The notes under the pieces: model-generated
What the model was told of the DNA's origin: nothing
Databases searched by the model: none
Seen by the model: the letters and a program-made list of their open reading frames with translations, nothing else
NCBI GenBank assembly: GCA_934246625.1
Contig: CAKQHZ010000001.1
Span: 90,001-122,000 of the forward strand
Direction: 5' to 3'
Length of the DNA: 32,000 nt
DNA from: an uncultured Alphaproteobacteria bacterium
Lineage (GTDB): Bacteria; Pseudomonadota; Alphaproteobacteria; Rs-D84; CACZYB01
Shown here: piece after piece, positions 10,116-28,768 of the stretch
How the letters are laid out: each line of letters starts with the position of its first letter
Numbering within the stretch: position 1 is the stretch's first letter
Program-made: the position numbers and the translations under genes

Positions 10116-10120
10116 AATTT

Positions 10121-10152
10121 ATCCCCTAGCTTTTGGCTGGGGGATTTTTTTT
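10121..10152. terminator. Rho-independent terminator between convergent mnmE and rodA, plausibly bidirectional
   Basis: atcccctagc (10121-10130) pairs with gctgggggat (10136-10145), with one T-G pair and loop ttttg. It is followed by an 8-T run. The upstream flank is A-rich with a short T stretch, so the other strand also reads a T-rich tract. Confidence 0.75.
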
Positions 10153-10171
10153 ACTTGATAAAAATATCAAT

Positions 10172-11365
10172 TTACAAATAATCACTTTTCGAACTTATCA
10201 ACATATCGCTGTGAATATAACAACATTCGATTAGTCCAAATCCAAAAAACAATGTTAACATTGCTGTGCCACCATAAGACAAAAGTGGTGATGGAACACC
10301 AACAACTGGTAATAATCCCATAACCATTGCTGTGTTTATAAAGAAATAAACAAAAAAGTTTGCACCCAATCCCAAGGCAAGCAATTTTCCAAATGTATTT
10401 CGGCTTACAAATGCAACCCTATAACATTGCCAAAGTATTGCAATAATAAGTGCAAATAACATAAGACAACCAAACATACCAAATTCTTCTGCAAACATTG
10501 TAAAAATAAAATCCGTTTGTTTTTCAGGCAAAAAGTTCAAATGACTTTGGGTGCCCTGTAAATATCCCTTTCCCCAAAAACCACCTGAACCAAGTGAAAT
10601 TTTGGATTGTGTAATGTGATAACCTGAACCCATAATATCCTTTTCTGGATTCATAAAAATAACAATTCTTTGTTTTTGGTAATCGTGAAGTCCATATTGC
10701 CATATCACAGGAAATGCCACCAATAAAAGCATAAATATTGCACCAAATTTCCACCATTGAACTCCTGCAATAAAAAAGACTATACCTGAAACAAAAACAA
10801 GCATCATTGCAGTTCCCAAATCAGGTTGTAATAATACCAAAAGAACTGGAAGTCCAACTAAACCCAATGGAAATACAAGGTAATAGTTGCTTCGTATTTC
10901 ATTTATACTTAGGGCAGCGAAATATTTTGATAATGCAAGCACCAACGCAATTTTCATAAATTCAGATGGTTGAAAACGTATAAAACCTAAATTAAGCCAA
11001 CGTTGTGCACCCATTCCAACATGACCAACTATATTCACCAAAATCAATGAAACAACGCCTATACCATATATCCAATAAGCATATTTCACCCAAATTTTTA
11101 AATCAAAAACAGAAATAACAAATAAAATAAAAAAGCCAATTATAATTTTTGGAAGTTGTGAAATTGCCCATGGAGTCCATGAACCATAACTTAAAAGACA
11201 GGTTAATTTGTCGGTGCATTCTGCCTTTCCTGCACTATATAAAATAGCAAGCCCAACAGAAGACAAAAGTCCAATTAAAAAAACAAGTTTCCAATTAAGG
11301 CATAGGAATTTTGAAAGTATACTCATACGCCCACTTTTTTTCATACTTAAAGAATAATTTAACAT
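10172..11365 (-). CDS. rodA: Peptidoglycan glycosyltransferase RodA (SEDS family)
   Basis: Polytopic membrane protein. Motifs QPSEFMKIALVL, LQPDLGTA and GSGGFWGKGYLQGTQSHLNFLPEKQTDFIFTMFAEEFG. Lies downstream of mrdA. The true start may be an internal Met. Confidence 0.88.
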   Translation of the reverse strand: MLNYSLSMKKSGRMSILSKFLCLNWKLVFLIGLLSSVGLAILYSAGKAECTDKLTCLLSYGSWTPWAISQLPKIIIGFFILFVISVFDLKIWVKYAYWIYGIGVVSLILVNIVGHVGMGAQRWLNLGFIRFQPSEFMKIALVLALSKYFAALSINEIRSNYYLVFPLGLVGLPVLLVLLQPDLGTAMMLVFVSGIVFFIAGVQWWKFGAIFMLLLVAFPVIWQYGLHDYQKQRIVIFMNPEKDIMGSGYHITQSKISLGSGGFWGKGYLQGTQSHLNFLPEKQTDFIFTMFAEEFGMFGCLMLFALIIAILWQCYRVAFVSRNTFGKLLALGLGANFFVYFFINTAMVMGLLPVVGVPSPLLSYGGTAMLTLFFGFGLIECCYIHSDMLISSKSDYL

Positions 11366-16266: not shown

Positions 16267-17109
16267 ATGAATACTTTAATGCTTATTTTATCCCTTATAT
16301 GGGTAATAACTTTTGTAATCTATAACAAATTAGTTGTAAAAGATGGCAAAACATATAAAAACAATGCAACAAAGGTTCTTGCTACTGTAGTTGCTCCTAT
16401 TGTTATTTTATTTTTTGCAATTTATACAACTGCTTCTTGGGTTGTAAGTTTCAAAACAAGAGATGCTATCTTGGCAAATCCAATGGTTTTAGTTGAAGCA
16501 TCTGAAAGACTTCAAGAAATTGAACAAGAAAAAGCTATGGAAGAATCAAGACAAGCTGTTAAAAATATTAAAGAAGAAGATTCTGCACATGCTCCTGTTA
16601 TTGGAAATGCAGATGGTAAAGTTGTAATTTATGAATTCTTTGACTATAACTGTGGATATTGCAAACGTGGTAATCTTGCTTTGACAGATGTTTTATCAAC
16701 AGAAAAAGATGTTAAAGTTGTTCTTAAAAACTTGCCTATCTTCCCTATTTCACAAATTCCTGCAAAAGCTGTAATTGCTGCTAAAGAACAAGGTAAATCT
16801 GCTGAATTACATGCTCTTTTATTTGAAAATCATTTAGTTCCAGAAGCAAATGAAAAGGCAACTGAACAAGATATGAATGATAAAATCAAAGCTATCGTTT
16901 TCGGTTTAGCTGAAAAAGCTGGTATTGATGTTGAAAAATTAAAGAAAGATATGGAAGCTCCTGCTGTTGAAGAAGAACTTTTAAGAACTCGTCAACTTGC
17001 AGAAAAACTTCAAATCCAAGGAACACCTGCTTTCGTTGTTGGTGATCAATTATTCCGTGGATATATTGATGCAAATCAAATGAGAAATGCAATTCAACAA
17101 TCAAGATAA
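16267..17109 (+). CDS. DsbA-family thiol:disulfide oxidoreductase with an N-terminal membrane anchor
   Basis: Two N-terminal hydrophobic segments. Thioredoxin-fold CxxC FFDYNCGYCKR. C-terminal GTPAFVVGDQLFRGY, typical of DsbA/DsbG-like proteins. Confidence 0.8.
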   Translation: MNTLMLILSLIWVITFVIYNKLVVKDGKTYKNNATKVLATVVAPIVILFFAIYTTASWVVSFKTRDAILANPMVLVEASERLQEIEQEKAMEESRQAVKNIKEEDSAHAPVIGNADGKVVIYEFFDYNCGYCKRGNLALTDVLSTEKDVKVVLKNLPIFPISQIPAKAVIAAKEQGKSAELHALLFENHLVPEANEKATEQDMNDKIKAIVFGLAEKAGIDVEKLKKDMEAPAVEEELLRTRQLAEKLQIQGTPAFVVGDQLFRGYIDANQMRNAIQQSR

Positions 17110-17133
17110 TTTAAAAAATTATTCAGATTAAAG

Positions 17134-17159
17134 TCCCTCAGTTTTGAGGGATTTTTTTT
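17134..17159 (+). terminator. Rho-independent terminator after the DsbA-like gene
   Basis: tccctca (17134-17140), loop gttt, tgaggga (17145-17151), then 8 T. Confidence 0.8.
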
Positions 17160-17160
17160 A

Positions 17161-17568
17161 TTTACTTTTTCATTATTTATGTTATATTGATTTTTAGATG
17201 CAATGAATAATTGCATTTAGTATCAGAGATGATACGGGGCCTTAAACAGCTCTTGAAACTGAACGGTGTATTTTTAACAATAGCATCGTTATGTTGCTAT
17301 TTTTTTATGCTTAAAATGTAAAAAAAATAGGAACAACTATTGTCCCAACCTTTGCGGGTTGGGAAGTCGTAGGAATGCAATAGGAGTATAATCTTTATAC
17401 TTTAAATACTACGAGATCATTGTTCAGTTTTGATTGTTTAACTTCCCGACCACTTATCTTTGATACGTGGGATTATTTTTATAAAGGGAGTAAGTTCTTC
17501 GCAATAGCAAGTTTAAAAATGCTACTGCAAGACCTTCAAACCTTTAAATAAAAAAGGGGAAGAAAACC
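17161..17568 (+). other. Unusually long hairpin-rich non-coding region upstream of the Cys-rich genes. Candidate structured leader or small RNA(s).
   Basis: No ORF of 60 aa or more. Contains a promoter-like TTTACT-16-TATATT (17161-17188), palindrome ATGCAAT-5-ATTGCAT (17198-17216), hairpin plus T-run (17279-17307), GC-rich hairpin cccaacc/ggttggg (17344-17363), long-range helix gggaagt/acttccc (17361-17367 with 17441-17447), and a second caatagca hairpin (17501-17528). Confidence 0.35.
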
Positions 17569-17985
17569 ATGAAAAACTTATCTAAAATACTTTGTATTTG
17601 TGCGGGGGCTATCTCGGCAAATCCTATTAACCTTCAGGCTAAAACTTTGCTTGAAACCTTGACTCAATACTGTGTTCCGACGGTTGGCAACTGCGACAAA
17701 AAGGCTACCTACAATACCTCTGGCAACTATTGCGATTGTGCCAACATCAACAAATTCTATAACTCTTCGAATCGTTCTTGCGAGAACTGTATCCTCGGCT
17801 CTTTCGCAACCTCAGACTATAAAACTTGTGAGCCTATTCATTGCCCTGACGGCTATGTTGCGACTTTGATTTCCAAAGGGGCGTGTCCAGATGGCTATAC
17901 TTTGCAACAAATCAATGTGGCTTCGGGTTGTGGCGAGGGTTATGCGTTGAAGAAGTATAATCCGGCGACGAAGAGTTTTAATTAA
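17569..17985 (+). CDS. Secreted cysteine-rich protein with CxxGY repeats (hypothetical)
   Basis: RBS GGGGAAG lies upstream. Sec-type signal peptide (KILCICAGAISA). 10 Cys in the mature part. Repeated CPDGYV / CPDGYT / CGEGYA units. GC-richer codons than neighbouring genes. Confidence 0.7.
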   Translation: MKNLSKILCICAGAISANPINLQAKTLLETLTQYCVPTVGNCDKKATYNTSGNYCDCANINKFYNSSNRSCENCILGSFATSDYKTCEPIHCPDGYVATLISKGACPDGYTLQQINVASGCGEGYALKKYNPATKSFN

Positions 17986-18092
17986 AGATATGGGCGGGAG
18001 TTTTTTATCATAGTCTTGCTTCCGCCCTCCCAGATTGGCACTTTTGAAGAGGGGGAGGTGTCAAGGAAGAAACACCCTCGAAGGAGAAAAAA

Positions 18093-18767
18093 ATGAAAAC
18101 CATGAAGAAAAAGAAATTAGCGGTGATAGGGATAGCGGGATTAGCGGGAATGCTTTACTCTGCGACACCTGCCTCCGCTCAAACATTTTATCAATGTATG
18201 CCTTTGAAGTGTAAAGCAGGAGAGTATGTAAGTGAAGGAGGAGAGTGTAAACGTTGCACGGGAGGTTATCGTTGCCCAGGAGATAATAAAAGGTATGCAT
18301 GCACAGGAGAATGGGAATATGCGTTTCCAGGAAGTTCAAGATGTTCAACCTTTGGCCCAAGTGATATTGAAAATATGAAATTGTTGGTTGGAGCTGGAGG
18401 TTGTTCACCGGGTAATTTCGCATCAATATATGTAAGGTTAAAGAATCTAAAAGTAGCAAATAATAGATATTACTATTTCGCTGTTAATATACCTCACTAT
18501 AAAACCCCTGCAATCCCTGAATATGTTATATATACACACTGTAACGCTGTACAAAATGATTATGAAGACCAAATATTATGTAAAGATATACAAAAAGTTA
18601 TAGTAAAAAGTAGAGGTGTTGGCGGTGGTGGCTGTTTCTCTCTTACACAAGGTAGTAAAGAGTTTCCTAATGTAGTGTTTGTTTCTGATAGCGGAAAATG
18701 TATGTCTTATTGGAAAGATGAACATGGAAGACAAAGGTTTGATACGTTGGACAAATGTAAATATTAA
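18093..18767 (+). CDS. Secreted cysteine-rich protein: N-terminal CxxGY-type repeats plus a C-terminal domain of unknown type (hypothetical)
   Basis: RBS GAAGGAG lies 7 nt upstream. Signal peptide ending ASA-QT. 13 Cys in the mature part. Units CKAGEY, CTGGYRC and CTGEWEY. Confidence 0.7.
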   Translation: MKTMKKKKLAVIGIAGLAGMLYSATPASAQTFYQCMPLKCKAGEYVSEGGECKRCTGGYRCPGDNKRYACTGEWEYAFPGSSRCSTFGPSDIENMKLLVGAGGCSPGNFASIYVRLKNLKVANNRYYYFAVNIPHYKTPAIPEYVIYTHCNAVQNDYEDQILCKDIQKVIVKSRGVGGGGCFSLTQGSKEFPNVVFVSDSGKCMSYWKDEHGRQRFDTLDKCKY

Positions 18768-18773
18768 TAAAAA

Positions 18774-18802
18774 ATCCCCCAGTAATCTGAGGGATTTTTT
18801 TT
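18774..18802. terminator. Bidirectional rho-independent terminator between the second Cys-rich gene and rpsD
   Basis: atcccccag (18774-18782), loop taat, ctgagggat (18787-18795), with one mismatch. An A-run lies upstream and 8 T downstream. Confidence 0.75.
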
Positions 18803-21357: not shown

Positions 21358-21458
21358 AAAAATTCGCTATTTACTCATTATTTTTCTTGCAAAATCATAT
21401 TTTTAAATATAATCTTATTAAGTAGGAAAGAAATTTTATAAAAAAATTGGAGAGTTTA

Positions 21459-22190
21459 ATGAAAATATCTAATTTATCAATAGCAGTTATTGCATTGTCT
21501 GCTTTGTTGTTTTCTGGCAAAACTTATGCAGATTGGGGTGTGGAAGCATACGAGGAAGAAATCGTTGATGACAGCCCTGTTTGGCCTATGCCTTATACTG
21601 ACTCATATACAAATATAGATGAGTTGGCTGAAAATCCTGACTATACAACACAAAATGCAGAAAATGCAAACAAAGTATCTTCAAAAACTCCTGAAACTGG
21701 TTGGACAGGTGGCCCAAGTTATACTCCACCTGCTGGAAATCCTCCTGTGGTTGAAAATATTATTCCGCCAGCAGATTCAAATATGCCTTTGGCAAATAAA
21801 GATTTAATCGTTGATGATGGTGTAAGAGTGCTTTCTGCTTCTATGCCTCCTGGATACCCTCTTGTTGAATATGTTGAAACAAAGGAAGTTGTGATGGAAG
21901 ACGAAGTTAATAAAATTCTTCAAGATTCTATTCGTGATTGGGTTGCAAAGGAAGGTCAAACTCTTCGCGAAGTATTACAACAATGGGCTGATATTGAAGG
22001 TTGGGAACTTGTTTGGAATACAAAACGTGAGTATCCTTTAAAGGCATCTGCAATATTCAGAGGAAGATTTAAAGATGTTTCTTCTGCTATTATTAGAACA
22101 TTTTCAAGAGCTACACCTCAACCTTTGGCTAAATATTACTTAGGAAATAGAGTGTTAGTTGTAAAAACTTTGGAGGAAAATGATGGTTAG
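21459..22190 (+). CDS. pilL: PilL-like periplasmic protein with a TcpQ-type C-terminal domain (type IVb pilus biogenesis)
   Basis: Signal peptide without a lipobox. C-terminal RDWVAKEGQTLREVLQQWADIEGWELVWNTKREYPLKASAIFRGRFKDVSSAIIRTF...LGNRVLVV matches my memory of the TcpQ/PilL domain. It is the first gene of the cluster and overlaps pilN by 11 nt. I prefer the ATG at 21459, with GGAGAG upstream, to the TTG at 21447. Confidence 0.6.
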   Translation: MKISNLSIAVIALSALLFSGKTYADWGVEAYEEEIVDDSPVWPMPYTDSYTNIDELAENPDYTTQNAENANKVSSKTPETGWTGGPSYTPPAGNPPVVENIIPPADSNMPLANKDLIVDDGVRVLSASMPPGYPLVEYVETKEVVMEDEVNKILQDSIRDWVAKEGQTLREVLQQWADIEGWELVWNTKREYPLKASAIFRGRFKDVSSAIIRTFSRATPQPLAKYYLGNRVLVVKTLEENDG

Positions 22191-23700
22191 TAAAAAAGTT
22201 CTTCTCACATCAGTAATGCTTTCTTATGCATTAAGTGGTTGTGTGTATAATCATGAAATGGCAAGTTCTGTGAAAAATAAGGTATCTGTGGATTTTGATG
22301 AAACACAAGATGCACTTGACAGAGCAAAGGTTCCTGGTCGTCCAATATCAAAGGATATTATTTCTGTAAGTGATGATATTTGGCTTGGTGAAACAAGTAT
22401 TGTGGCAGAACATAACGACCCATTGCCAAACAGATTTGAATCTGATGAAGGTATTACTTTGATGACAGATTCAGCAGTTACCTTTGATGAAATAACAAAT
22501 CAAATTTATTATTTGACTGGAATTTCTGTTCAAATTGAAGATAGTATCAAAAAAGAAGATTTAAAGGATTTAAGTATTTCTTATACTGGTCCATTATCTG
22601 GTCTTTTGAATATGCTTGCATTAAAGGCAAACATCAATTGGAGTTATGAAGGTGGAAAGATTATTTTCTATAAATATAAGACAAGAACATTTATTCTTCA
22701 TACACTTGCAACAGAATCAACTTATTCAGCAAACATTTCTTCTGGAAGTGATGGTTCAGCAACTTTGCAAACATCATCTAATTTAAAAGAATGGACTGAA
22801 ATTGGTGATGTTTTAAAAACTATTGTAAAAGATGGTGAAGTTCAACTTTCTCCTTCTACAAATTCTATTACCGTTACTGCTACACCAAAAACATTACAAA
22901 AGGTTGAAGCATACATAAAAGAACAAAACAGAAGATTTGCAAAGCAAGTTGCTGTTACTGTTAGAGTTATGCAAGTATCTCTTTCAAAAAGCAACAATTT
23001 TGGTCTTAACCTTACTGCTTTGTTTAACAATACTTATAATTTAGTAACAAGCACATCAAATGCAAGCTCTGATGGATTGTCATTCGCAATTTTGAAAGAT
23101 TCAAATGATAAAATGGCTGGTTCATCTGCTGCTATAAAGGCATTGTCAGCACAAGGAAAAACTTCTTTGTTGACATCTGCTGTTATTACTGCAAGAAATA
23201 ATCGAGTTGTGCCAATTAACAATATTCAAACTTTCAAGTATGTAAGTTCTATTTCTACTTTGACTGAAAATACAAATTCAACAACTGAAGTAACTCCACA
23301 AGAAGAATCTGTTGGTTTCAGTATGCAAATTATGCCTAACATTCTTGAAAATGGTAAATTGATGTTGTTGTTCAATATGTCATTAAAGGAACTTATCACT
23401 ATTGACACAATGCAAGTTGGTTCAACTGTGGTTCAACTTCCAAAGATTGAACAAAGAAACTTTATGCAAGAACTTGTTATGGAATCAGGTCAAACTGCGG
23501 TTCTTACTGGATTTGAAAAAATCAGAAATGAAAATGGCAGTGAAGGTCTTGGAAAGAGTGAATTTACATACCTTGGTGGTTCACAAAGCACAGAAACAAC
23601 TCGCGATGTATTGGTTGTTATGTTGACACCTCAAGTTATTACTTCACCACTTGAAATTGAAGATAACTCTAATAATGATTGGGGTATGCCATCTTACTAA
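22180..23700 (+). CDS. pilN: Type IVb pilus secretin lipoprotein (R64 PilN family)
   Basis: Lipobox LSGC at residues 19-22. Secretin-like C-terminus: NNRVVPINNIQTFKYV, GFSMQIMPNILENGKLMLLFN and TGFEKIRNENGSEGLGKSEFTYLGG...DVLVVMLTPQVI. Confidence 0.75.
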   Translation: MMVSKKVLLTSVMLSYALSGCVYNHEMASSVKNKVSVDFDETQDALDRAKVPGRPISKDIISVSDDIWLGETSIVAEHNDPLPNRFESDEGITLMTDSAVTFDEITNQIYYLTGISVQIEDSIKKEDLKDLSISYTGPLSGLLNMLALKANINWSYEGGKIIFYKYKTRTFILHTLATESTYSANISSGSDGSATLQTSSNLKEWTEIGDVLKTIVKDGEVQLSPSTNSITVTATPKTLQKVEAYIKEQNRRFAKQVAVTVRVMQVSLSKSNNFGLNLTALFNNTYNLVTSTSNASSDGLSFAILKDSNDKMAGSSAAIKALSAQGKTSLLTSAVITARNNRVVPINNIQTFKYVSSISTLTENTNSTTEVTPQEESVGFSMQIMPNILENGKLMLLFNMSLKELITIDTMQVGSTVVQLPKIEQRNFMQELVMESGQTAVLTGFEKIRNENGSEGLGKSEFTYLGGSQSTETTRDVLVVMLTPQVITSPLEIEDNSNNDWGMPSY

Positions 23701-23723
23701 CATTTATTTAAGAGGGGAAAAAG

Positions 23724-25175
23724 TTGGTAGCAAGCAAAGATATTAAAACTGTTGATATAGCAGGAAAAACCTATGCAGTAGGTCTTTTCTGGCAACCTGT
23801 TCAAAATGAAAAAGAATATTTGAAAGAGGTAAAAGCTGCTGTTCAAACAGTTGTGGTTGGTGCAAACCTTTATTGCTTGAAAAAGGGAACTGCCTCTCAA
23901 TATGGTTTAGGTTTTACAAGCTCTGGTCAAAAAAAGGGTATGCCTGCGGGTGCATCAGGAATTGCGAACGCACTTCGTGATAAATCATCTGCGGTTTGTG
24001 TTTTTAAGGTCAATGAAGGTTGGTGGTTCATCACCATAAGAAATAACCTTATTCTTTCCGAAGAAGATACTATCTATACCGATGAAAATGAAGCAAGAGA
24101 AGCATTTAATTCTATGTTATCAATCCCAGATTGGGGATATAAGATTGCTCCTGCAGAATGGGGAATCGAAGATACAAAAGAAATAAGTGCCGTTGAATTA
24201 TTATCAAAGGGTCAATCTGTTGAATTAAAATCTATTGAAACAAACAATGCAAAAAATATTATTTTAATTCTTTTGATGGTCGGAGCTGGTTGGTATTATT
24301 ACCATTCTGAACAAGTTAAAAAAGCTGAACAAGAAAGAATTGCAAGAGAAAGAAGAATTGCTGCGGCAAAGAAAAAAATGCTACAGGAGGTTGCTCCTCC
24401 ACCTCCTCCACCTGCTCCTTTTGAAAGTTTGACTGATATAAAGGATATGGCAAAGAAATGCACTATTTTAATTGTAAATTCAACTGCAACTGTGCCAGGT
24501 TGGGAATTGGATAAATCAATTTGTATAGAAAAGGCTATGACTTCAAATTGGAAGCGTGGTTATGGAACTGCGGGTTGGATTTTCGAAGCTCAACGATATG
24601 GAAATCTTCCAAAGGAAATGGAATTGTCTGCGGATAATAGCTCTTATAATTCTGTAAGTGGAACTATCAATATTCCATTTATAAAGCATACCAACCAAGC
24701 ACCTGTTATGGAAAAAAATGAAATTCAAAAAAAGTTAAGTGATATTTTTCAATCTTTGAAACTTTCTACATTCAAACTTCATGATGGAAAGACAACTATA
24801 AAGGATAAAAATAATCCTAACTATATAATGGATTATCCATACACAAATTTTTCATTTACTGATGCGGCTTATCGTCTTCCTTTGGATTGGGTGAAATTGC
24901 TTAGCGAAATAAATTCTATTGAATTTACTTCAATAACGTGGGATAATAAGAACAGACGTTGGTCTTATGAGGGAAGAATTTATGAAAATACTCCTGCTTT
25001 GATAAAACAAGCAGAACAAAAGAAATTAGAGGAAGAAAAAAAGTTGAAAGAAGAAGAGGCAAAGAAAAAGCAACAAGAAGCTCAAAATTCTGCAACTTTA
25101 GAAAATTCTGATAAAACAAATACAGAAGGAAAAAAAGAGGGGAATACCGATGGCAATTCTAAACAATCTAAATAA
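23724..25175 (+). CDS. pilO: PilO-like bitopic pilus biogenesis protein (R64 PilO, pilin accessory protein family) with a Pro run and an E/K-rich tail
   Basis: TTG start 6 nt after GAGGGG. N-terminal GKTYAVGLFWQP region. Single TM NIILILLMVGAGWYYY. Position between the secretin gene and the pilP-like gene. The family call is from memory of PilO N-termini. Confidence 0.55.
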   Translation: MVASKDIKTVDIAGKTYAVGLFWQPVQNEKEYLKEVKAAVQTVVVGANLYCLKKGTASQYGLGFTSSGQKKGMPAGASGIANALRDKSSAVCVFKVNEGWWFITIRNNLILSEEDTIYTDENEAREAFNSMLSIPDWGYKIAPAEWGIEDTKEISAVELLSKGQSVELKSIETNNAKNIILILLMVGAGWYYYHSEQVKKAEQERIARERRIAAAKKKMLQEVAPPPPPPAPFESLTDIKDMAKKCTILIVNSTATVPGWELDKSICIEKAMTSNWKRGYGTAGWIFEAQRYGNLPKEMELSADNSSYNSVSGTINIPFIKHTNQAPVMEKNEIQKKLSDIFQSLKLSTFKLHDGKTTIKDKNNPNYIMDYPYTNFSFTDAAYRLPLDWVKLLSEINSIEFTSITWDNKNRRWSYEGRIYENTPALIKQAEQKKLEEEKKLKEEEAKKKQQEAQNSATLENSDKTNTEGKKEGNTDGNSKQSK

Positions 25176-26028
25176 AAAAAATTATATTTTATTTTTATTT
25201 ATGTTAATTTTATCATTTACCTTTAATGTTGCAAATGTAAAGGCTCAAGCAAATGATAATCAAGACGAATATTATGAAGATGACGAAGAATATGATGAGT
25301 CAGAAGAAGATGTTGCCAATGATGAAGATTTAGGTAATGAATACGATGAAGGTTCTGATTTATATGAAAATACAGTGGATATTGATGACCCAAATGGTAT
25401 GTATAAACTTGACGATTTAACTGCTTCTACATTCAAACAAATTACATCTATGGAAAGACAAAATGCCATTATGAAACTTAAAATTGAACAAGGCAAATTG
25501 AAACTTGATTTGGAAAAACAAGAAGCTGAAAAGAAAAAACTTGCTCTTAACCTTGCTGATGAAGAAAAGGCTCGTGAATTAAAACGTGAAGAACAAGAAA
25601 GAAAGATTGAAGAAACTCGTAAAAAGGCTCGTGAATTAGAAGAAAAAGAGCAAGAAGAACGTAAAAAGAAACAACAAGAAGAAGAATTAAACAGAAAAAT
25701 TATGGATAAAATCAATTCAGCAGATTTAACAAATCCTGATGATGTGCAAGCATTAAGTCAACTTTTAAGTTTGGCTGGTGGTAATACTGCAAGTCTTCAA
25801 AATAAAAATGTTAGAAAAGCTGATAATATAGAAGATAAATATGTGATTAAATCCATTGCTGGCGCTGGTGGTAATTTGGTTGCCAATATTGAAAATATTG
25901 AAAAAAAATCTACTTTTAAAGTAAGAAATGGTAGTGTGCTTGATGGCTGGCTTGTTGAAAGTGTAAAAAGCTCAAGTATCTTACTTAAAAAAGGTGGTAT
26001 TGCTAAAGTAATGTATCTTAATCAATAG
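25150..26028 (+). CDS. pilP: PilP-like pilus biogenesis protein with acidic and coiled-coil inserts
   Basis: Signal peptide ending KAQA-ND. C-terminal beta-domain-like YVIKSIAGAGGNLVANIENIEKKSTFKVRNGSVLDGWLVESVKSSSILLKKGG. GAGGGG RBS. Overlaps pilO by 26 nt. Confidence 0.55.
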   Translation: MAILNNLNKKNYILFLFMLILSFTFNVANVKAQANDNQDEYYEDDEEYDESEEDVANDEDLGNEYDEGSDLYENTVDIDDPNGMYKLDDLTASTFKQITSMERQNAIMKLKIEQGKLKLDLEKQEAEKKKLALNLADEEKARELKREEQERKIEETRKKARELEEKEQEERKKKQQEEELNRKIMDKINSADLTNPDDVQALSQLLSLAGGNTASLQNKNVRKADNIEDKYVIKSIAGAGGNLVANIENIEKKSTFKVRNGSVLDGWLVESVKSSSILLKKGGIAKVMYLNQ

Positions 26029-26036
26029 GATTTTAA

Positions 26037-27668
26037 ATGGAGGGGAATAACAACATTGATGTGGAATTAGCATCTCAACCTGCTAATCCGTTCGAGGGTT
26101 TATCTTTAAAAGATGCAACTGCAAAACTTTTTGCCAATGGGAATACATTGGAATCTGGACCAAAGGGAAAATTTCCTGTGGGTGCGGATACACAAAGTTT
26201 GCTTGCTTTGTTTGCTGATGGAACCTTTCTTGTTTCTGGAACACATAAATTTGATGGTAGAGTTTTAAGTTTCCAATCTTTGGTAAGAAAAAAGGGTGGA
26301 AAAATTGCCAGACCTATTTATGTTTCTATGAGTTTATTGAACTCTATTTATTCATCTAATGAAAAGGCGACAAGTGTAAAATCCTCCTCTGATGACAATT
26401 CATCAAACCAAATGCAAAAGGATTTTGTTGATATTGTTTATAGAGCCGCAGATTTAAAAGTTTCTGATATTCACGTTATCGTTTCTGACCATACAACTGT
26501 GTTGTTCAGAGTTTCAGGAAGTATGCAAACTATACTTGAATATGATAAAAACTGGGGTGAGGCATTTGTGCGTTCTGTGTTCGCGTCTGCGGATATTTCT
26601 GATTCAAACTATGCACAAAACGAATTCCAAGCTGGTCAAAAACTGGGTTCAACACCTCTTCGTGGTGAAAGAGATTTGTATTTGCCAGAAAATATACTTT
26701 CTATTCGTTTGCAATTTAATCCTATTGCGTTTGGTTCACGATATTTGGTTATGCGTTTGTTGTATGCAAATTCTTCTGCCTCAAATGACGATAATTTAAA
26801 AGAATTAGGATTTTCAGATTACGAAGATTCAAAACTTTATAAAATGAGAAGTTTTCCAACTGGGCTTTGTATTATTGCTGGTCCAACAGGTTCTGGTAAG
26901 TCAACAACTCTTCAACGTAATATGATTAAGATGCTTAAGGAAAAAAATTATGAACTTAACCTTATTACGGTGGAAGATCCTCCTGAATACCCTATTCCAG
27001 GTGCAAGACAATTACCTGTGACAAATGCGACAACAGAAGAAGAAAAGGAAGAGGCTTTCAACCTTGCTTTGGCGGCGGCACTTCGTTCTGACCCTGATGC
27101 AATGATGGTCGGTGAAATTCGAACACTTTCTTCTGCGGAATTGACATTCAAGGCCGCATTATCAGGACACAATGTGTGGTCAACACTTCACGCAAATTCT
27201 GCCCCTGCTATTGTGAACAGACTTTTGGATATGGGAATTGATGCGTTTAAATTAAAAGATGCAGAATTAATTCGTGGTCTTCTTTCACAAAGACTTTTTA
27301 AAAAACTATGCCCAAAATGTAGAGAAGCAATTAAAAATCACCCTGATCACCCATCTTATGAAAGATTGGAAAAGGCATTGGGCAAATATGGCATTGAACA
27401 AACTTATATAAAGGGAAAAGGTTGTCCATTTTGTGGTGGAAAGGGAATTGTCGGCCGTATTGTTGCATCTGAAATTATTATTCCTGATTCAACTTTCCTT
27501 GAAAAACTAACAAGTGGTAAAAAAAGTGATGCTGTTCATTATTGGACTAATGAACTTAGTGGTAGAACATTAAAAGAAGATGCGATTGAAAAAATGTTAA
27601 AGGGTATCATTTCCATTGATGAAGTAGAAAGATGGTGTGGTATGATTGATACAGACGCCGTTTATTAA
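26037..27668 (+). CDS. pilQ: Type IVb pilus assembly ATPase (GspE/PilB superfamily, R64 PilQ-like)
   Basis: Walker A GPTGSGKST, ITVEDPPEY, Walker B region DPDAMMVGEIR, His box GHNVWSTLHAN, and tetracysteine CPKC...CPFCGGKG. Confidence 0.85.
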   Translation: MEGNNNIDVELASQPANPFEGLSLKDATAKLFANGNTLESGPKGKFPVGADTQSLLALFADGTFLVSGTHKFDGRVLSFQSLVRKKGGKIARPIYVSMSLLNSIYSSNEKATSVKSSSDDNSSNQMQKDFVDIVYRAADLKVSDIHVIVSDHTTVLFRVSGSMQTILEYDKNWGEAFVRSVFASADISDSNYAQNEFQAGQKLGSTPLRGERDLYLPENILSIRLQFNPIAFGSRYLVMRLLYANSSASNDDNLKELGFSDYEDSKLYKMRSFPTGLCIIAGPTGSGKSTTLQRNMIKMLKEKNYELNLITVEDPPEYPIPGARQLPVTNATTEEEKEEAFNLALAAALRSDPDAMMVGEIRTLSSAELTFKAALSGHNVWSTLHANSAPAIVNRLLDMGIDAFKLKDAELIRGLLSQRLFKKLCPKCREAIKNHPDHPSYERLEKALGKYGIEQTYIKGKGCPFCGGKGIVGRIVASEIIIPDSTFLEKLTSGKKSDAVHYWTNELSGRTLKEDAIEKMLKGIISIDEVERWCGMIDTDAVY

Positions 27669-27679
27669 AGGAGAATATT

Positions 27680-28768
27680 ATGGCTATTCAAAAAGTAATT
27701 CCTTCAAATGCAACGATATTAAAATTATCTCAACTTATGGTTTTGTTGAATAATGAAAAAAGGCTTAAAATTTATTATAAATTGGCAGCCCTTCTTCGCA
27801 ATAAATTTACTTTGATGGATGCCTTAGACAGAATTTGGATGATTGAATCAAAGGACGGACAAAGTCCAGAAGAACCTATGGCTATTGCGGTGGCTTGGTG
27901 GTTAAAGGAATTGGAAAAAGGTTTGTCTTTTTCAACTGCTATAAATGGTTGGGCTCCTGTGCGTGAAAAATTGATGCTTTCTGTTGGTGATGTGTCAAAA
28001 CTTGAAAAGGCTTTACTTAATGTTATAAAGGTTTCAGAAGGTTCAAATAAAATTATTAAACCATTGATAAATGCGGTTACTTATCCGTTATTGATGATTG
28101 GACTTTCACTTCTTATTATTGTGGGTGTTGGTGTGTATATGGTTCCTCCACTTATGGAATTTGCAAAAAATGCACAATGGACAGGAAGTGCAAAATCCTT
28201 GGTTGCACTATCTAATTTTGTGAAAGTTTATTGGTGGACCTTCCCGGCTGTGCTATTTGGGATTATTTTAGTTATATATGTATCATTTGCAAACTTTACT
28301 GGACCTTTGCGTGTATCATTTGATAAATGTCCACCTTGGTCATTATACAGAATGTTCACTGGTGTGAGCTGGCTTATGAGTTTGGCTGCATTGGTAGAAT
28401 CTGGAACTCCTATTTCAAAAGCTATGCAATCATTACGTCAAAATGCTTCACCTTATTTAAGGGAACGTATTGATAAGGCATTGATGTTTATGAAAAATGG
28501 TGATAACTTAGGAACTTCACTTAAAAAATCAGGAACTCATTTCCCAGAAGACGAACTTATCGGCGATTTGGAAATTTATTCTGAACTTGATGGATTTGAA
28601 GACTCTTTAAATGCTGTTGCTTCAGATTATCTTAATACCAGTATTGAAAATATTCAAAAGCAAGCGTCTATGTTAAATTCGTTTGCATTGCTACTTGTTT
28701 CAGGTATTATTGCATGGGTTCTTCTTGGTGTGTTTGATATGCAAAACCAAGTTCAAAATGCGATGTAA
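27680..28768 (+). CDS. pilR: Type IVb pilus inner-membrane platform protein (GspF/PilC family, R64 PilR-like)
   Basis: 362 aa with three hydrophobic segments in a GspF-like arrangement. Follows the ATPase gene directly, with an AGGAG RBS. Confidence 0.75.
   Translation: MAIQKVIPSNATILKLSQLMVLLNNEKRLKIYYKLAALLRNKFTLMDALDRIWMIESKDGQSPEEPMAIAVAWWLKELEKGLSFSTAINGWAPVREKLMLSVGDVSKLEKALLNVIKVSEGSNKIIKPLINAVTYPLLMIGLSLLIIVGVGVYMVPPLMEFAKNAQWTGSAKSLVALSNFVKVYWWTFPAVLFGIILVIYVSFANFTGPLRVSFDKCPPWSLYRMFTGVSWLMSLAALVESGTPISKAMQSLRQNASPYLRERIDKALMFMKNGDNLGTSLKKSGTHFPEDELIGDLEIYSELDGFEDSLNAVASDYLNTSIENIQKQASMLNSFALLLVSGIIAWVLLGVFDMQNQVQNAM

What the first reader, a model, noticed from the sequence alone, without database searches (positions are those of the whole stretch)
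17569..18767. Two tandem secreted cysteine-rich proteins with repeated CxxGY units (eukaryote-like Cys-repeat pattern) and foreign-looking GC content
Both ORFs have good RBSs and Sec signal peptides. Their mature parts are Cys-rich, with 10 Cys and 13 Cys respectively.

Protein 1 repeats CPDGYV / CPDGYT / CGEGYA and has CENCILGSF...C. Protein 2 has CKAGEYVSEGGECKRCTGGYRCPGDNKRYACTGEWEY. The C-x-x-G-(x)-Y ... C-x-x-C spacing reminds me of ephrin-receptor-like (GCC2_GCC3), furin-like and TNFR-like repeats from eukaryotic surface proteins. This is pattern resemblance only.

Hand counts on 60-nt lines give 40-58% GC across 17641-18420. That compares with about 23-35% in the flanking genes I sampled. 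Many codons are GCG, ACG, CCG or GGC, which are rare elsewhere in the window. Together this suggests horizontally acquired, exported, disulfide-bonded effectors or adhesins in a probably host-associated bacterium.
Basis: partly seen in the sequence, partly recalled or inferred. Interest (0 to 1): 0.7.

Follow-up and report, generated by a model that had tools for sequence, protein, structure and literature searches.

The report
Recombining secreted cysteine-rich gene pair
The two genes are real exported, cysteine-rich proteins from an uncultured human-gut bacterium; they form one copy of a repeated, mix-and-match two-gene cassette controlled by a previously undescribed folded RNA, and their odd GC-rich stretch is the shared core of that cassette.

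Summary
There are two tandem ORFs (17569-17985 and 18093-18767) with Sec-type signal peptides and 10 and 13 mature cysteines. GC3 is 0.47 in gene 1 and 0.39 in gene 2 codons 1-52, against 0.196±0.033 in 28 neighbouring genes.

- **Ephrin-receptor-like repeats.** The window proteins hit no Pfam model. However, 20 of 50 gene-2 relatives and a gene-1 relative hit Ephrin_rec_like (GCC2_GCC3), several above threshold, at the aligned module.
- **No eukaryotic link.** Only 48 clusters in 1.84 billion proteins are related. Every contig whose origin I could read was bacterial, several from human gut.
- **The GC-rich stretch is a multi-copy core.** It comprises gene 1, the intergenic hairpin and the gene 2 signal peptide, and it recurs at four or more chromosomal contexts at 92-97% identity.
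- **Strain variation.** A strain with 99.4% identical flanks carries a different gene-1 allele and an unrelated gene-2 C-terminal domain. A ~250-bp hinge stays nearly invariant.

New finding: each cassette is preceded by a structured leader RNA (17195-17482). It shows strong covariation and two mutually exclusive pairings, and it is absent from Rfam.

Protein function is unknown. My best guess is variable extracellular binding proteins.

The parts
17161..17188 (+). Promoter-like site (TTTACT, 16-nt spacer, TATATT, with TG) in front of the leader RNA
   Evidence: Consensus scan. The equivalent A/T-rich hexamers line up in the other loci. Inferred, not shown.
17195..17253 (+). Leader RNA 5' domain: three abutting hairpins. 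P1 is 17195-17219, P2 is GTATCA-GAGA-TGATAC at 17220-17235, and P3 is 17236-17253.
   Evidence: Seven loci with different sequences fold into the same three hairpins. P2 has 4 of 6 pairs with compensatory changes.
17281..17306 (+). Optional terminator-like hairpin plus T-run inside the leader
   Evidence: Present in the window, L011, L002a and L002b with compensating stems. Absent in L003, L005 and L009.
17338..17453 (+). Leader RNA 3' domain: a multi-helix junction. Segment 1 is CCCAACC (17344-17350), segment 2 is GGTTGGGAAGT (17357-17367) and segment 3 is ACTTCCC (17441-17447). Segment 2 can pair with either segment 1 or segment 3.
   Evidence: Model R1 scores 111 bits here and finds 14 further hits with E up to 0.2 in other loci (12 at or below 2e-9), all upstream of family genes, plus one weak in-window hit that I discount. 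93.3% of cells are paired against 76% in shuffles and 41-49% when slid. Eighteen of 26 pairs show compensatory changes. The two states lie within 0.6-5.6 kcal/mol of each other in 8 sequences.
17450..17482 (+). Putative expression platform: CCAC...GTGGGA (17467-17472) followed by a T-rich run, terminator-like
   Evidence: Conserved GTGG(G) plus T-run in the aligned leaders. The L005 minus-strand copy has a clean CCACAC/GTGTGG stem followed by CTTTTTT. Function is inferred.
17569..17985 (+). Gene 1: a 138-aa secreted Cys-rich protein with divergent Ephrin_rec_like-type repeats. This is the GC-rich allele (GC3 0.47).
   Evidence: dN/dS between copies is 0-0.04.
17550..18248 (+). GC-rich shared core of the cassette
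   Evidence: 97.4% identical to L005, 93.9% to L009 and 94.2% to L011, all of which lie in other chromosomal contexts.
17950..18195 (+). Near-invariant hinge: the last codons of gene 1, the intergenic region, and the gene 2 signal peptide up to QTFYQCMP
   Evidence: 97-100% identical in 40-nt windows even to L007, whose gene-1 body is only 50-85% identical. Contigs L001, L004 and L010 start inside it, at 18005, 18000 and 17986.
17992..18027 (+). Intergenic hairpin GGGCGGGAG / CTTCCGCCC with a conserved 18-nt loop (UUUUUUAUCAUAGUCUUG), followed by the C-rich tract UCCC
   Evidence: Conserved in all pairs, including those in a 40% GC relative. 94% of cells are paired and one position shows AU, CG and UA pairs. 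Statistical support is modest. It has no U-tract, so gene 1 and gene 2 are probably co-transcribed (inference).
18093..18767 (+). Gene 2: a 224-aa secreted protein. It has a family-invariant signal peptide, then QTFYQCMP, then Ephrin_rec_like-type Cys repeats (to about residue 85), then a 'type A' C-terminal domain.
   Evidence: Outside the type A/B cluster, the C-terminal domain has no clear relative among 1.84 billion representatives.
18769..18800 (.). Bidirectional terminator shared with the convergent rpsD

Best explanation
**What it is.** The region is one copy of a lineage-restricted, multi-copy two-gene cassette in the chromosome of an uncultured, low-GC bacterium. Related contigs are named after human-gut (Hadza) metagenome assemblies, and gene content suggests an alphaproteobacterium. 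The cassette runs: promoter, a leader RNA of about 290 nt, gene 1, a conserved intergenic hairpin, gene 2.

**The proteins.** Both are exported through Sec and carry divergent ephrin-receptor-like (GCC2_GCC3 / TNFR-type) cysteine repeats. At this locus a DsbA gene lies just upstream, and DsbA-type enzymes would oxidise such repeats in the periplasm.

**The GC-rich stretch.** It is not a separate island. It is the shared core of the cassette: one GC-rich allele of gene 1 plus a near-invariant hinge of about 250 bp (end of gene 1, intergenic hairpin, gene 2 signal peptide). This core is found in at least four chromosomal contexts. It is decaying towards AT, so it most likely entered from a GC-richer relative and then spread between loci.

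**How it varies (inferred).** Homologous recombination uses the leader, the hinge and the locus flanks as anchors. It swaps the body of gene 1 and the C-terminal domain of gene 2 between loci and strains. Nearly identical strains therefore display unrelated gene-2 C-terminal domains.

**How it is controlled (inferred).** Leader segment 2 pairs either with segment 1 or with segment 3. When it pairs with segment 1, segment 3 is free to form a terminator or to sequester the ribosome-binding site. When it pairs with segment 3, the junction closes and expression proceeds.

**What it does (weakest step).** The proteins are probably disulfide-stabilised, variable extracellular binding proteins aimed at host, phage or competitor surfaces. 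The C-terminal domain of gene 2 appears to be under relaxed or diversifying selection.
For: **Real genes**
- Copies of gene 1 differ by 6-16 synonymous changes but only 0-2 non-synonymous ones.

**Cassette and copy number**
- The same pair architecture occurs in several contexts: dsbA/rpsD (window, L001, L004, L007), upstream of TraT (L005, L006, L009, L010), rne (L011), recR/mreB (L015), next to PFOR (L012), and a second divergent pair in L011.
- P0008 and P0022 share the same longest-contig length, 316,244 bp. P0018 and P0032 share 195,900 bp. This points to two pairs on one contig.

**Mosaic structure**.

**Composition**
- The GC3 excess is confined to the core.
- Only this gene-1 allele is GC-rich, at 0.43-0.47 across four contexts. 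Other alleles in the same species are 0.18-0.24.
- Singleton changes run 16 GC-to-AT against 2 AT-to-GC.

**Repeat family**. Sub-threshold PDB matches are to thyroglobulin's GCC2/GCC3 region, ELAPOR1, EphB2, CaSR and mastigoneme.

**Leader RNA**. It also precedes a third kind of secreted Cys-repeat gene of 143 aa.

**Selection on gene 2**
- The C-terminal domain shows 7 non-synonymous and 0 synonymous differences between the window and L001.
- Six neighbouring genes together show 6 non-synonymous and 36 synonymous differences.

**Source**
- Contig names are Hadza human-gut assemblies.
- Mitofilin/Mic60, DciA and CarD-type genes are present in the window and related contigs, along with an AddA-size UvrD-family helicase that I take to be AddA-like.
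Against: - The window proteins give no significant hit in Pfam, NCBIfam, PHROGs or the PDB.
- Both AlphaFold models are unreliable, with pLDDT 45.7 and 40.3. The fold and function of the type A domain are therefore unknown.
- There is no expression data, so the signal peptides, promoter, terminator and RNA switch are all predictions.
- Differing upstream flanks at the TraT locus could be assembly chimeras at the repeat rather than real rearrangements.
- The RNA alignment behind the pair counts was fitted to the model, and it holds only 11 distinct sequences.
- The 7:0 count in gene 2 is too small to separate positive selection from relaxed selection.
- The GC excess could instead reflect GC-biased gene conversion in a multi-copy segment.
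Confidence: 0.6

Rival explanations
1. Eukaryote-derived effector. The pair was acquired from a eukaryotic host or protist and mimics ephrin-receptor or TNFR-type surface proteins.
For: - The family hits Ephrin_rec_like, TNFR_ELAPOR1_6th and NCD3G, which I recall as mainly eukaryotic families.
- Synonymous-site composition is foreign.
- Related contigs come from human-gut assemblies.
Against: - The library search found only 48 clusters at E<=1e-3. Those I inspected were short signal-peptide proteins of the same bacterial family, apart from a few long multi-repeat proteins.
- Similarity to eukaryotic chains in the PDB is far from significant, at E of 0.09-10.
- AT-rich alleles at other loci show that the family is long resident in this lineage.
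- The closest GC-richer relatives are bacterial (L002 and L003).
Confidence: 0.07
2. Polymorphic secreted toxin or bacteriocin. Gene 2 would have a conserved delivery or receptor-binding N-terminus and a swappable toxic C-terminus. Gene 1 would be an accessory or immunity factor.
For: - Gene 2 has a conserved N-terminus followed by at least six unrelated C-terminal types.
- Strains with 99.4% identical flanks carry different C-terminal types at the same locus.
- The GC-rich conserved core with AT-rich variable tips recalls what I remember of Rhs elements.
Against: - No C-terminal type hits a known toxin domain.
- No gene lies between gene 2 and rpsD that could encode immunity.
- The same 138-aa gene-1 allele pairs with gene-2 types A, C and D, so it does not co-vary as an immunity protein should.
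- One C-terminal type is a Gly_rich_2 domain, which is not a known toxin.
Confidence: 0.13
3. The GC excess comes from GC-biased gene conversion, or concerted evolution of a multi-copy segment, and not from horizontal import. This rival concerns only the origin of the composition.
For: - The GC-rich allele is the one found in four or more contexts. Alleles that I saw in only one context are AT-rich.
- The hinge, which is the most homogenised stretch, is GC-rich in every allele.
- In the 40% GC relative L002, gene 1 also exceeds its own background, at GC3 0.54 against 0.35.
Against: - Singleton changes within the GC-rich allele are 16 GC-to-AT against 2 AT-to-GC, which shows net decay. Polymorphism alone cannot exclude a bias at fixation.
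- In L003, a contig of the same MAG as L002, gene 1 matches its background.
Confidence: 0.3
4. Pilus-associated proteins. The pair would be minor pilins, adhesins or substrates of the neighbouring type IVb-pilus-like system at 21447-28768.
For: - The cluster lies 2.7 kb downstream.
- I found no pilin gene within the window.
Against: - Both proteins have classical AxA-type Sec signals, not prepilin leaders.
- Pairs at the TraT, rne, recR and PFOR contexts have no pilus genes nearby.
- rpsD, queH and a porin gene lie in between.
Confidence: 0.03

Closest known systems
Pfam PF07699 Ephrin_rec_like (formerly GCC2_GCC3), with the related TNFR_ELAPOR1_6th (PF23091) and NCD3G (PF07562) Cys-rich modules
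   Same: - The cysteine spacing matches: C-x2-G-x-[YF]-x(4-7)-C-x2-C-x2-G-x-[YF].
- Homologues score above the curated cut-off at the aligned module.
- The best, non-significant PDB alignments are to thyroglobulin's GCC2/GCC3 region, ELAPOR1, EphB2 and a mastigoneme protein.
   Different: - The window proteins fall below every threshold.
- They are small bacterial Sec-exported proteins of 138 and 224 aa with only 2-3 degenerate repeats.
- The repeats are fused to novel C-terminal domains.
- The fold could not be confirmed.
Multigene families with a conserved 5' box and variable 3' parts that vary by homologous recombination, for example Campylobacter fetus sapA homologues, Mycoplasma vsp/vlp, and the GC-rich core with AT-rich tips of Rhs elements (from my own knowledge)
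   Same: - An invariant upstream and signal-peptide region is joined to unrelated downstream domains.
- Several copies occur per genome.
- Alleles are replaced between near-identical strains.
- The conserved core is GC-richer than the variable tips.
   Different: - The unit is a gene pair, and the invariant box straddles the intergenic region.
- Every copy I examined has its own leader, with a promoter-like site in front of it in the window.
- I saw no silent cassettes, no invertible promoter and no adjacent dedicated recombinase.
- Switching within a single lineage has not been shown.
Riboswitch-type and attenuator-type cis-regulatory leader RNAs (terminator/antiterminator or SD-sequestering switches)
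   Same: - It sits in the 5' untranslated region.
- Several helices covary.
- One segment has two mutually exclusive partners, and both covary.
- A hairpin with a T-run, or an anti-SD pairing, lies downstream.
   Different: - It matches none of the 4227 Rfam 15 families.
- The ligand or trans-acting factor is unknown.
- It is tied to a family of secreted Cys-repeat proteins rather than to metabolic or transport genes.
- The terminator stems are weak in several copies.
Pfam PF21722 Gly_rich_2 proteins, which form one of the alternative gene-2 C-terminal types
   Same: Relatives with the same signal peptide and Cys module carry this domain. Examples are P0056, P0087, P0096, L002 gene 2, and probably the L007 allele at this very locus.
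   Different: The window's own C-terminal domain (type A) shows no similarity to it or to any Pfam family.

Membership tests
Ephrin_rec_like / GCC2_GCC3 (PF07699) | The protein itself scores above the curated cut-off of 23.1 bits | tested here: not met
   Neither window protein hits PF07699, even at E<=10.
Ephrin_rec_like / GCC2_GCC3 (PF07699) | Clear homologues score above the cut-off at the aligned module (transitive homology) | tested here: met
   Scores are P0041 26.8, P0026 26.3, P0091 25.1 and P0097 29.5 bits for gene-2 relatives, and P0084 27.1 bits for a gene-1 relative. Twenty of 50 gene-2 relatives hit at E<=0.01. For alignment registers.
Ephrin_rec_like / GCC2_GCC3 (PF07699) | TNFR-like disulfide-ladder fold | tested here: inconclusive
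   The AlphaFold2 models have pLDDT 45.7 and 40.3, too low for a fold search.
Sec/SPase I-exported proteins | Basic n-region, hydrophobic h-region, and small residues at -3 and -1 of the cleavage site | tested here: met
   Read directly from the translations. LQA|K and ASA|Q follow hydrophobic cores. There is no lipobox and no prepilin motif. No dedicated predictor was available, and export has not been shown.
Riboswitch/attenuator leader RNA | Conserved secondary structure supported by covariation | tested here: met
   Eighteen of 26 pairs show compensatory changes. 93.3% of cells are paired, against 76% in shuffles and 41-49% when slid. The 5' hairpins are conserved in 7 loci. Caveat: the alignment was fitted to the model.
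Riboswitch/attenuator leader RNA | Mutually exclusive alternative pairings coupled to a terminator or SD-sequestering helix | tested here: met
   Segment 2 pairs with segment 1 or with segment 3. In the L005 minus-strand copy all three segments change together (CTACCTGAC / GTCGGGTAG / CTACCCGAC). The two states lie within 0.6-5.6 kcal/mol in 8 sequences. In L015 the alternative state sequesters the SD. This is in silico only.
Riboswitch/attenuator leader RNA | Specific ligand or factor binding that changes expression | not testable with these tools
   This needs in-line probing, reporter assays or Term-seq.
Any Rfam 15 family | A match at the gathering score | tested here: not met
   No matches at gathering score across the whole window. 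At E<=10 over 17100-18120 there were only scattered chance-level hits.
Polymorphic toxin systems (Rhs/CDI/Maf-like logic) | Conserved N-terminal part with unrelated, exchangeable C-terminal domains | tested here: met
   At least six C-terminal types follow an invariant N-terminus. Different types occupy the same locus in near-identical strains.
Polymorphic toxin systems (Rhs/CDI/Maf-like logic) | A recognisable toxin domain, and a cognate immunity gene immediately downstream | tested here: not met
   No toxin family hit. Only 51 nt, holding a terminator, separate gene 2 from rpsD.
Diversity-generating retroelement target | A nearby reverse transcriptase and template repeat, with adenine-specific point variation | tested here: not met
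   No RT domain in any window ORF I scanned or in the annotated loci. Variation is replacement of whole modules. An Mtd_N tail-fibre-like gene next to the pair in L009 and L017 is the only hint.
Shufflon / invertible-element phase variation | Inverted repeats bounding the variable segment, an adjacent recombinase, and both orientations observed | tested here: not met
   The only flanking inverted repeat is the pair of terminators. No recombinase is adjacent in the window. All contigs show the same orientation.

The most novel reading that the evidence does not exclude
The leader could be a new class of ligand- or factor-sensing riboswitch-like RNA. It would be dedicated to switching on a hypervariable family of ephrin-receptor-like secreted proteins in uncultured human-gut alphaproteobacteria. 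The two proteins would act together through their conserved halves, the C-terminal part of protein 1 and the N-terminal part of protein 2. Their outward-facing variable halves would be reshuffled at an invariant hinge. Together this would amount to a regulated, recombination-driven surface or ligand variation system built from eukaryote-type cysteine repeats.
Probability: 0.2. Interest if true: 0.8.

Novelty: new variant of a known kind. Interest (0 to 1): 0.55.

Why it matters
- **A testable account of the 'foreign' GC patch.** The patch is the recombining core of a repeated cassette. This also explains why short-read assemblies of this organism break at exactly that point.
- **A new bacterial protein family.** It is an undescribed, strain-variable family of exported proteins built from ephrin-receptor-type cysteine repeats. 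It comes from a gut lineage known only from metagenomes. Such families are candidates for host, phage or competitor recognition.
- **A candidate new regulatory RNA.** The leader is supported by covariation, has a clear two-state design, and has no Rfam counterpart. It can be tested directly by probing and reporter assays. Its trigger would indicate when the bacterium deploys these proteins.

Tried and rejected
**Searches that found nothing useful**
- Pfam, NCBIfam, PHROGs and PDB sequence searches on the window proteins gave nothing significant.
- AlphaFold2 with family alignments gave pLDDT 45.7 and 40.3. I ran no fold searches, because they would have been meaningless.
- One scan of the GTDB species representatives found only two distant loci, in a MAG titled 'Bacteroidales'. 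The window's own species was not found, so I could not name the organism.
- The JGI metagenome scan with the intergenic-hairpin pattern found only one contig.
- The IMG/VR, phage and plasmid collections gave no relatives, so I rejected a mobile-element carrier.
- Rfam at gathering and at permissive thresholds gave nothing.
- Literature searches for the sample accession, Ephrin_rec_like or GCC2_GCC3 in bacteria, and gut RF32 alphaproteobacteria returned nothing relevant.

**Ideas tested and dropped**
- Folding the whole gene 1-gene 2 intergenic region gave z=-0.82, which is not exceptional. Only the first hairpin is conserved.
- Amino-acid composition or high expression as the cause of the GC excess: rejected. 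The excess is at third codon positions, and rpsD has GC3 of only 0.16.
- DGR, shufflon, a pilus link and toxin-immunity were all considered and not supported (see the membership tests).
- A conserved leader peptide in the 5' leader: I read the aligned leaders by eye and found none. The short ORF MNNCI lies in hairpin P1, whose sequence differs between loci.
Full report
**1. The observation**

Each has a purine-rich ribosome-binding site. Each has an N-terminus that reads as a classical Sec/SPase I signal, LQA|K in gene 1 and ASA|Q in gene 2. I judged this by eye, because no predictor was available.

The mature parts hold 10 and 13 cysteines, and all the quoted motifs are present.

The GC jump is real:
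- GC is 0.455 and 0.438 at 17601-18400, against about 0.31 in the rest of the window.
- The excess lies at synonymous sites. GC3 is 0.468 for gene 1 and 0.385 for gene 2 codons 1-52, against 0.196±0.033 (maximum 0.245) for 28 other genes.
- The 3' half of gene 2 (codons 110-224) is native at 0.190.
- GCG, ACG, CCG and GGC make up 10.8% of gene 1 codons, against 1.25% in the background.

**2. Context and source**

The neighbours are core chromosomal genes. Upstream lie SLT, rnhB, an AddA-size UvrD-family helicase, glgP, mnmE, rodA, pbp2, mreC, dciA and dsbA. Downstream lie rpsD, queH and a porin. Then comes a type IVb-pilus-like cluster, followed by a short ORF I take to be IHF/HU-like, accD and accA.

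Several contigs that carry the same or related genes are named after Hadza human-gut assemblies. One of them encodes a Mitofilin/Mic60 homologue. Together with DciA, a CarD-type protein and the AddA-size helicase, this points to an alphaproteobacterium. That placement is an inference, and I could not name the organism.

**3. The proteins**

Neither window protein hits Pfam, NCBIfam, PHROGs or the PDB significantly. Relatives exist only in metagenomes and MAGs:
- Gene 1 has nine clusters of relatives, counting the two searches together.
- Gene 2 has 50 clusters by word-seeded search.
- A full HMMER scan of 1.84 billion representatives found only 48 clusters at E<=1e-3.

The gene-2 family has a nearly invariant signal peptide, followed by QTFYQCMPxKCxAGEY. 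After that it splits into at least six unrelated C-terminal types. The window carries what I call type A. One other type is a Gly_rich_2 domain.

The gene-1 family is the mirror image. Its N-terminal part is variable and its C-terminal two-thirds are conserved.

- Twenty of 50 gene-2 relatives hit Ephrin_rec_like (PF07699), and 13 hit TNFR_ELAPOR1_6th.
- Several score above the curated cut-off.
- In P0041 and P0091 the hit covers the conserved module that aligns with the window sequence.
- The distant gene-1 relative P0084 scores 27.1 bits at the stretch aligned to CENCILGSF...CPDGY.

Profile and single-sequence searches of the PDB give only sub-threshold matches. They are nonetheless thematically consistent: thyroglobulin's GCC2/GCC3 region, ELAPOR1, EphB2, CaSR and a mastigoneme protein.

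The AlphaFold2 models were unusable. The Cys modules are therefore best described as divergent ephrin-receptor-like repeats. Membership is supported transitively, not directly.

**4. What the GC-rich stretch is**

At DNA level, window 17550-18248 recurs at 92-97% identity in other chromosomal contexts. It lies upstream of TraT in L005, L006, L009 and L010. It lies after rne in L011, where the shared block extends up to 17344.

More divergent pairs sit at recR/mreB (L015), next to PFOR (L012), and at a second site in L011. Two pairs appear to lie on single contigs of 316 kb and 196 kb.

L007 is the same dsbA/rpsD locus in another strain:
- Its flanks are 99.4% identical to the window.
- Its gene-1 body is only 50-85% identical.
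- Its gene-2 3' part cannot be aligned and encodes a different domain type.
- The stretch at about 17950-18195 stays 97-100% identical. This stretch holds the last codons of gene 1, the intergenic region and the gene 2 signal peptide.

Three short-read contigs begin inside this hinge, as expected for a repeat.

The GC-rich stretch is therefore the shared core of a repeated cassette. Only this particular gene-1 allele is GC-rich, with GC3 of 0.43-0.47 in four contexts. Other alleles in the same species have GC3 of 0.18-0.24.

Singleton differences within the gene-1 body are 16 GC-to-AT against 2 AT-to-GC. This fits a GC-richer import that is now decaying. GC-biased gene conversion in a multi-copy segment remains a live alternative.

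**5. Selection**

Copies of gene 1 differ almost only at synonymous sites, with dN/dS of 0-0.04, so it is a constrained, functional gene.

The gene-2 C-terminal domain differs between the window and L001 by 7 non-synonymous and 0 synonymous changes. Six neighbouring genes together show 6 non-synonymous and 36 synonymous changes. This indicates relaxed or diversifying selection. The numbers are too small to tell which.

**6. Regulatory RNAs (new)**

The 460-nt spacer upstream of gene 1 is conserved at 75% in L002, a contig of about 40% GC from a related MAG. There the coding sequence is only 65% identical.

Alignment of the upstream regions shows a structured leader:
- **5' domain.** Three abutting hairpins have different sequences but the same fold in seven loci.
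- **3' domain.** A multi-helix domain lies at 17338-17453. A covariance model built from six sequences finds 14 hits in the other held loci, 12 of them at E of 2e-9 or better, and all lie just upstream of family genes. These include a third kind of secreted Cys-repeat gene of 143 aa.
- **Pair counts.** On the model-fitted alignment, 93.3% of cells pair, against 76% in shuffles and 41-49% when slid. Eighteen of 26 pairs show compensatory changes.

One segment (GGTTGGGAAGT) can pair with an upstream partner (CCCAACC) or a downstream one (ACTTCCC). In a divergent copy all three segments change in step. The two states lie within 0.6-5.6 kcal/mol of each other in eight sequences.

The downstream partner is followed by a hairpin with a T-run. 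In L015 it pairs with the Shine-Dalgarno sequence instead. This is the design of an attenuator or riboswitch. Rfam 15 has no counterpart. The trigger is unknown.

A second element lies right after the gene 1 stop codon. It is a hairpin with a conserved loop at 17992-18027. It is conserved in all pairs, including the GC-richer relatives, with modest covariation support. It has no U-tract, so the two genes are probably co-transcribed.

**7. Mechanism proposed**

*Shown:*
- The cassette architecture.
- The copy contexts.
- The mosaic identity pattern.
- The composition.
- The covariation.

*Inferred:*
- Export and disulfide bonding.
- Exchange of modules by homologous recombination, anchored on the leader, the hinge and the locus flanks.
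- Control of expression by the leader switch.

*Conjecture:* the products are variable extracellular binding proteins.

*Rivals:*
- A polymorphic toxin reading fails on two defining features, since there is no toxin domain and no immunity gene.
- A eukaryotic origin has no support.
- Phage and plasmid carriage, DGR, shufflon and pilus links were each tested and not supported.

**8. Novelty and score**

The proteins are a new, narrow bacterial branch of a known cysteine-repeat kind. The recombining-cassette logic resembles known variable gene families, but here the unit is a gene pair with the invariant box across the intergenic region. The leader is a candidate new cis-regulatory RNA.

I rate this a new variant of a known kind, with interest 0.55. 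It is solid and testable, but function is unknown and all evidence is computational.

Noticed in passing
window 21447-28768: A type IVb-pilus-like cluster: TcpQ, secretin, PAP_PilO, an unassigned 292-aa protein, a T2SSE ATPase and T2SSF. I found no pilin or prepilin-peptidase gene within the window. The next ORF downstream is a short one that I take to be IHF/HU-like.
   Followed up: partly
window 17130-17174 and 18754-18798: A 45-nt imperfect inverted repeat (73% complementary) brackets the whole cassette. Both arms are bidirectional terminators that share GAGGGATTTTTTTT. I saw no sign of inversion.
   Followed up: partly
L009 7684-8814 (-) and L017 136-1266 (-): A 376-aa protein with an Mtd_N (phage tail-fibre / major tropism determinant N-terminal) domain lies directly upstream of the cassette in two independent contigs. 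No reverse transcriptase is nearby.
   Followed up: partly
L005/L006 15411-16000 (-), L009 15276-15863 (-), L010 5383-5970 (-): The same leader RNA precedes a single 143-aa secreted Cys-repeat gene. That gene lies at the edge of a prophage-like block with T7-type capsid, Phage_capsid_2 and nozzle genes.
   Followed up: partly
protein P0006 (155 aa, from a 10-kb metagenome contig): An in-frame fusion of the gene-1 N-terminal half to the C-terminal end of a type B gene 2. It is apparently a deletion or recombination product within a cassette.
   Followed up: no
L002 and L003 (CAZHAL01 MAG, titled 'uncultured Bacteroidales bacterium'): These contigs, of about 40% GC, carry the same gene pairs (two in tandem in L002), the same leader RNA and the same intergenic hairpin. 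L003 also shares the PriA/QueA/iPGM neighbourhood with L011. The taxonomic label or the binning looks doubtful.
   Followed up: partly
window 17481-17568: The window and L011 leaders carry about 70 extra nucleotides. They lie between an RBS-like AAAGGGAGT, which is the working RBS position in L002, and the RBS actually used. The insert includes a 10-codon mini-ORF, MLLQDLQTFK.
   Followed up: no
window 16267-17109: A membrane-anchored DsbA-family oxidoreductase with an ScsC_N-like segment lies immediately upstream of the cassette at this locus only. This may be coincidence, but it is notable next to two disulfide-rich exported proteins.
   Followed up: no
window 10118-10204: A weak hit of the leader model R1 (13.5 bits, E=0.76) lies between mnmE and rodA. 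I take it to be a chance match to a terminator-like hairpin.
   Followed up: no
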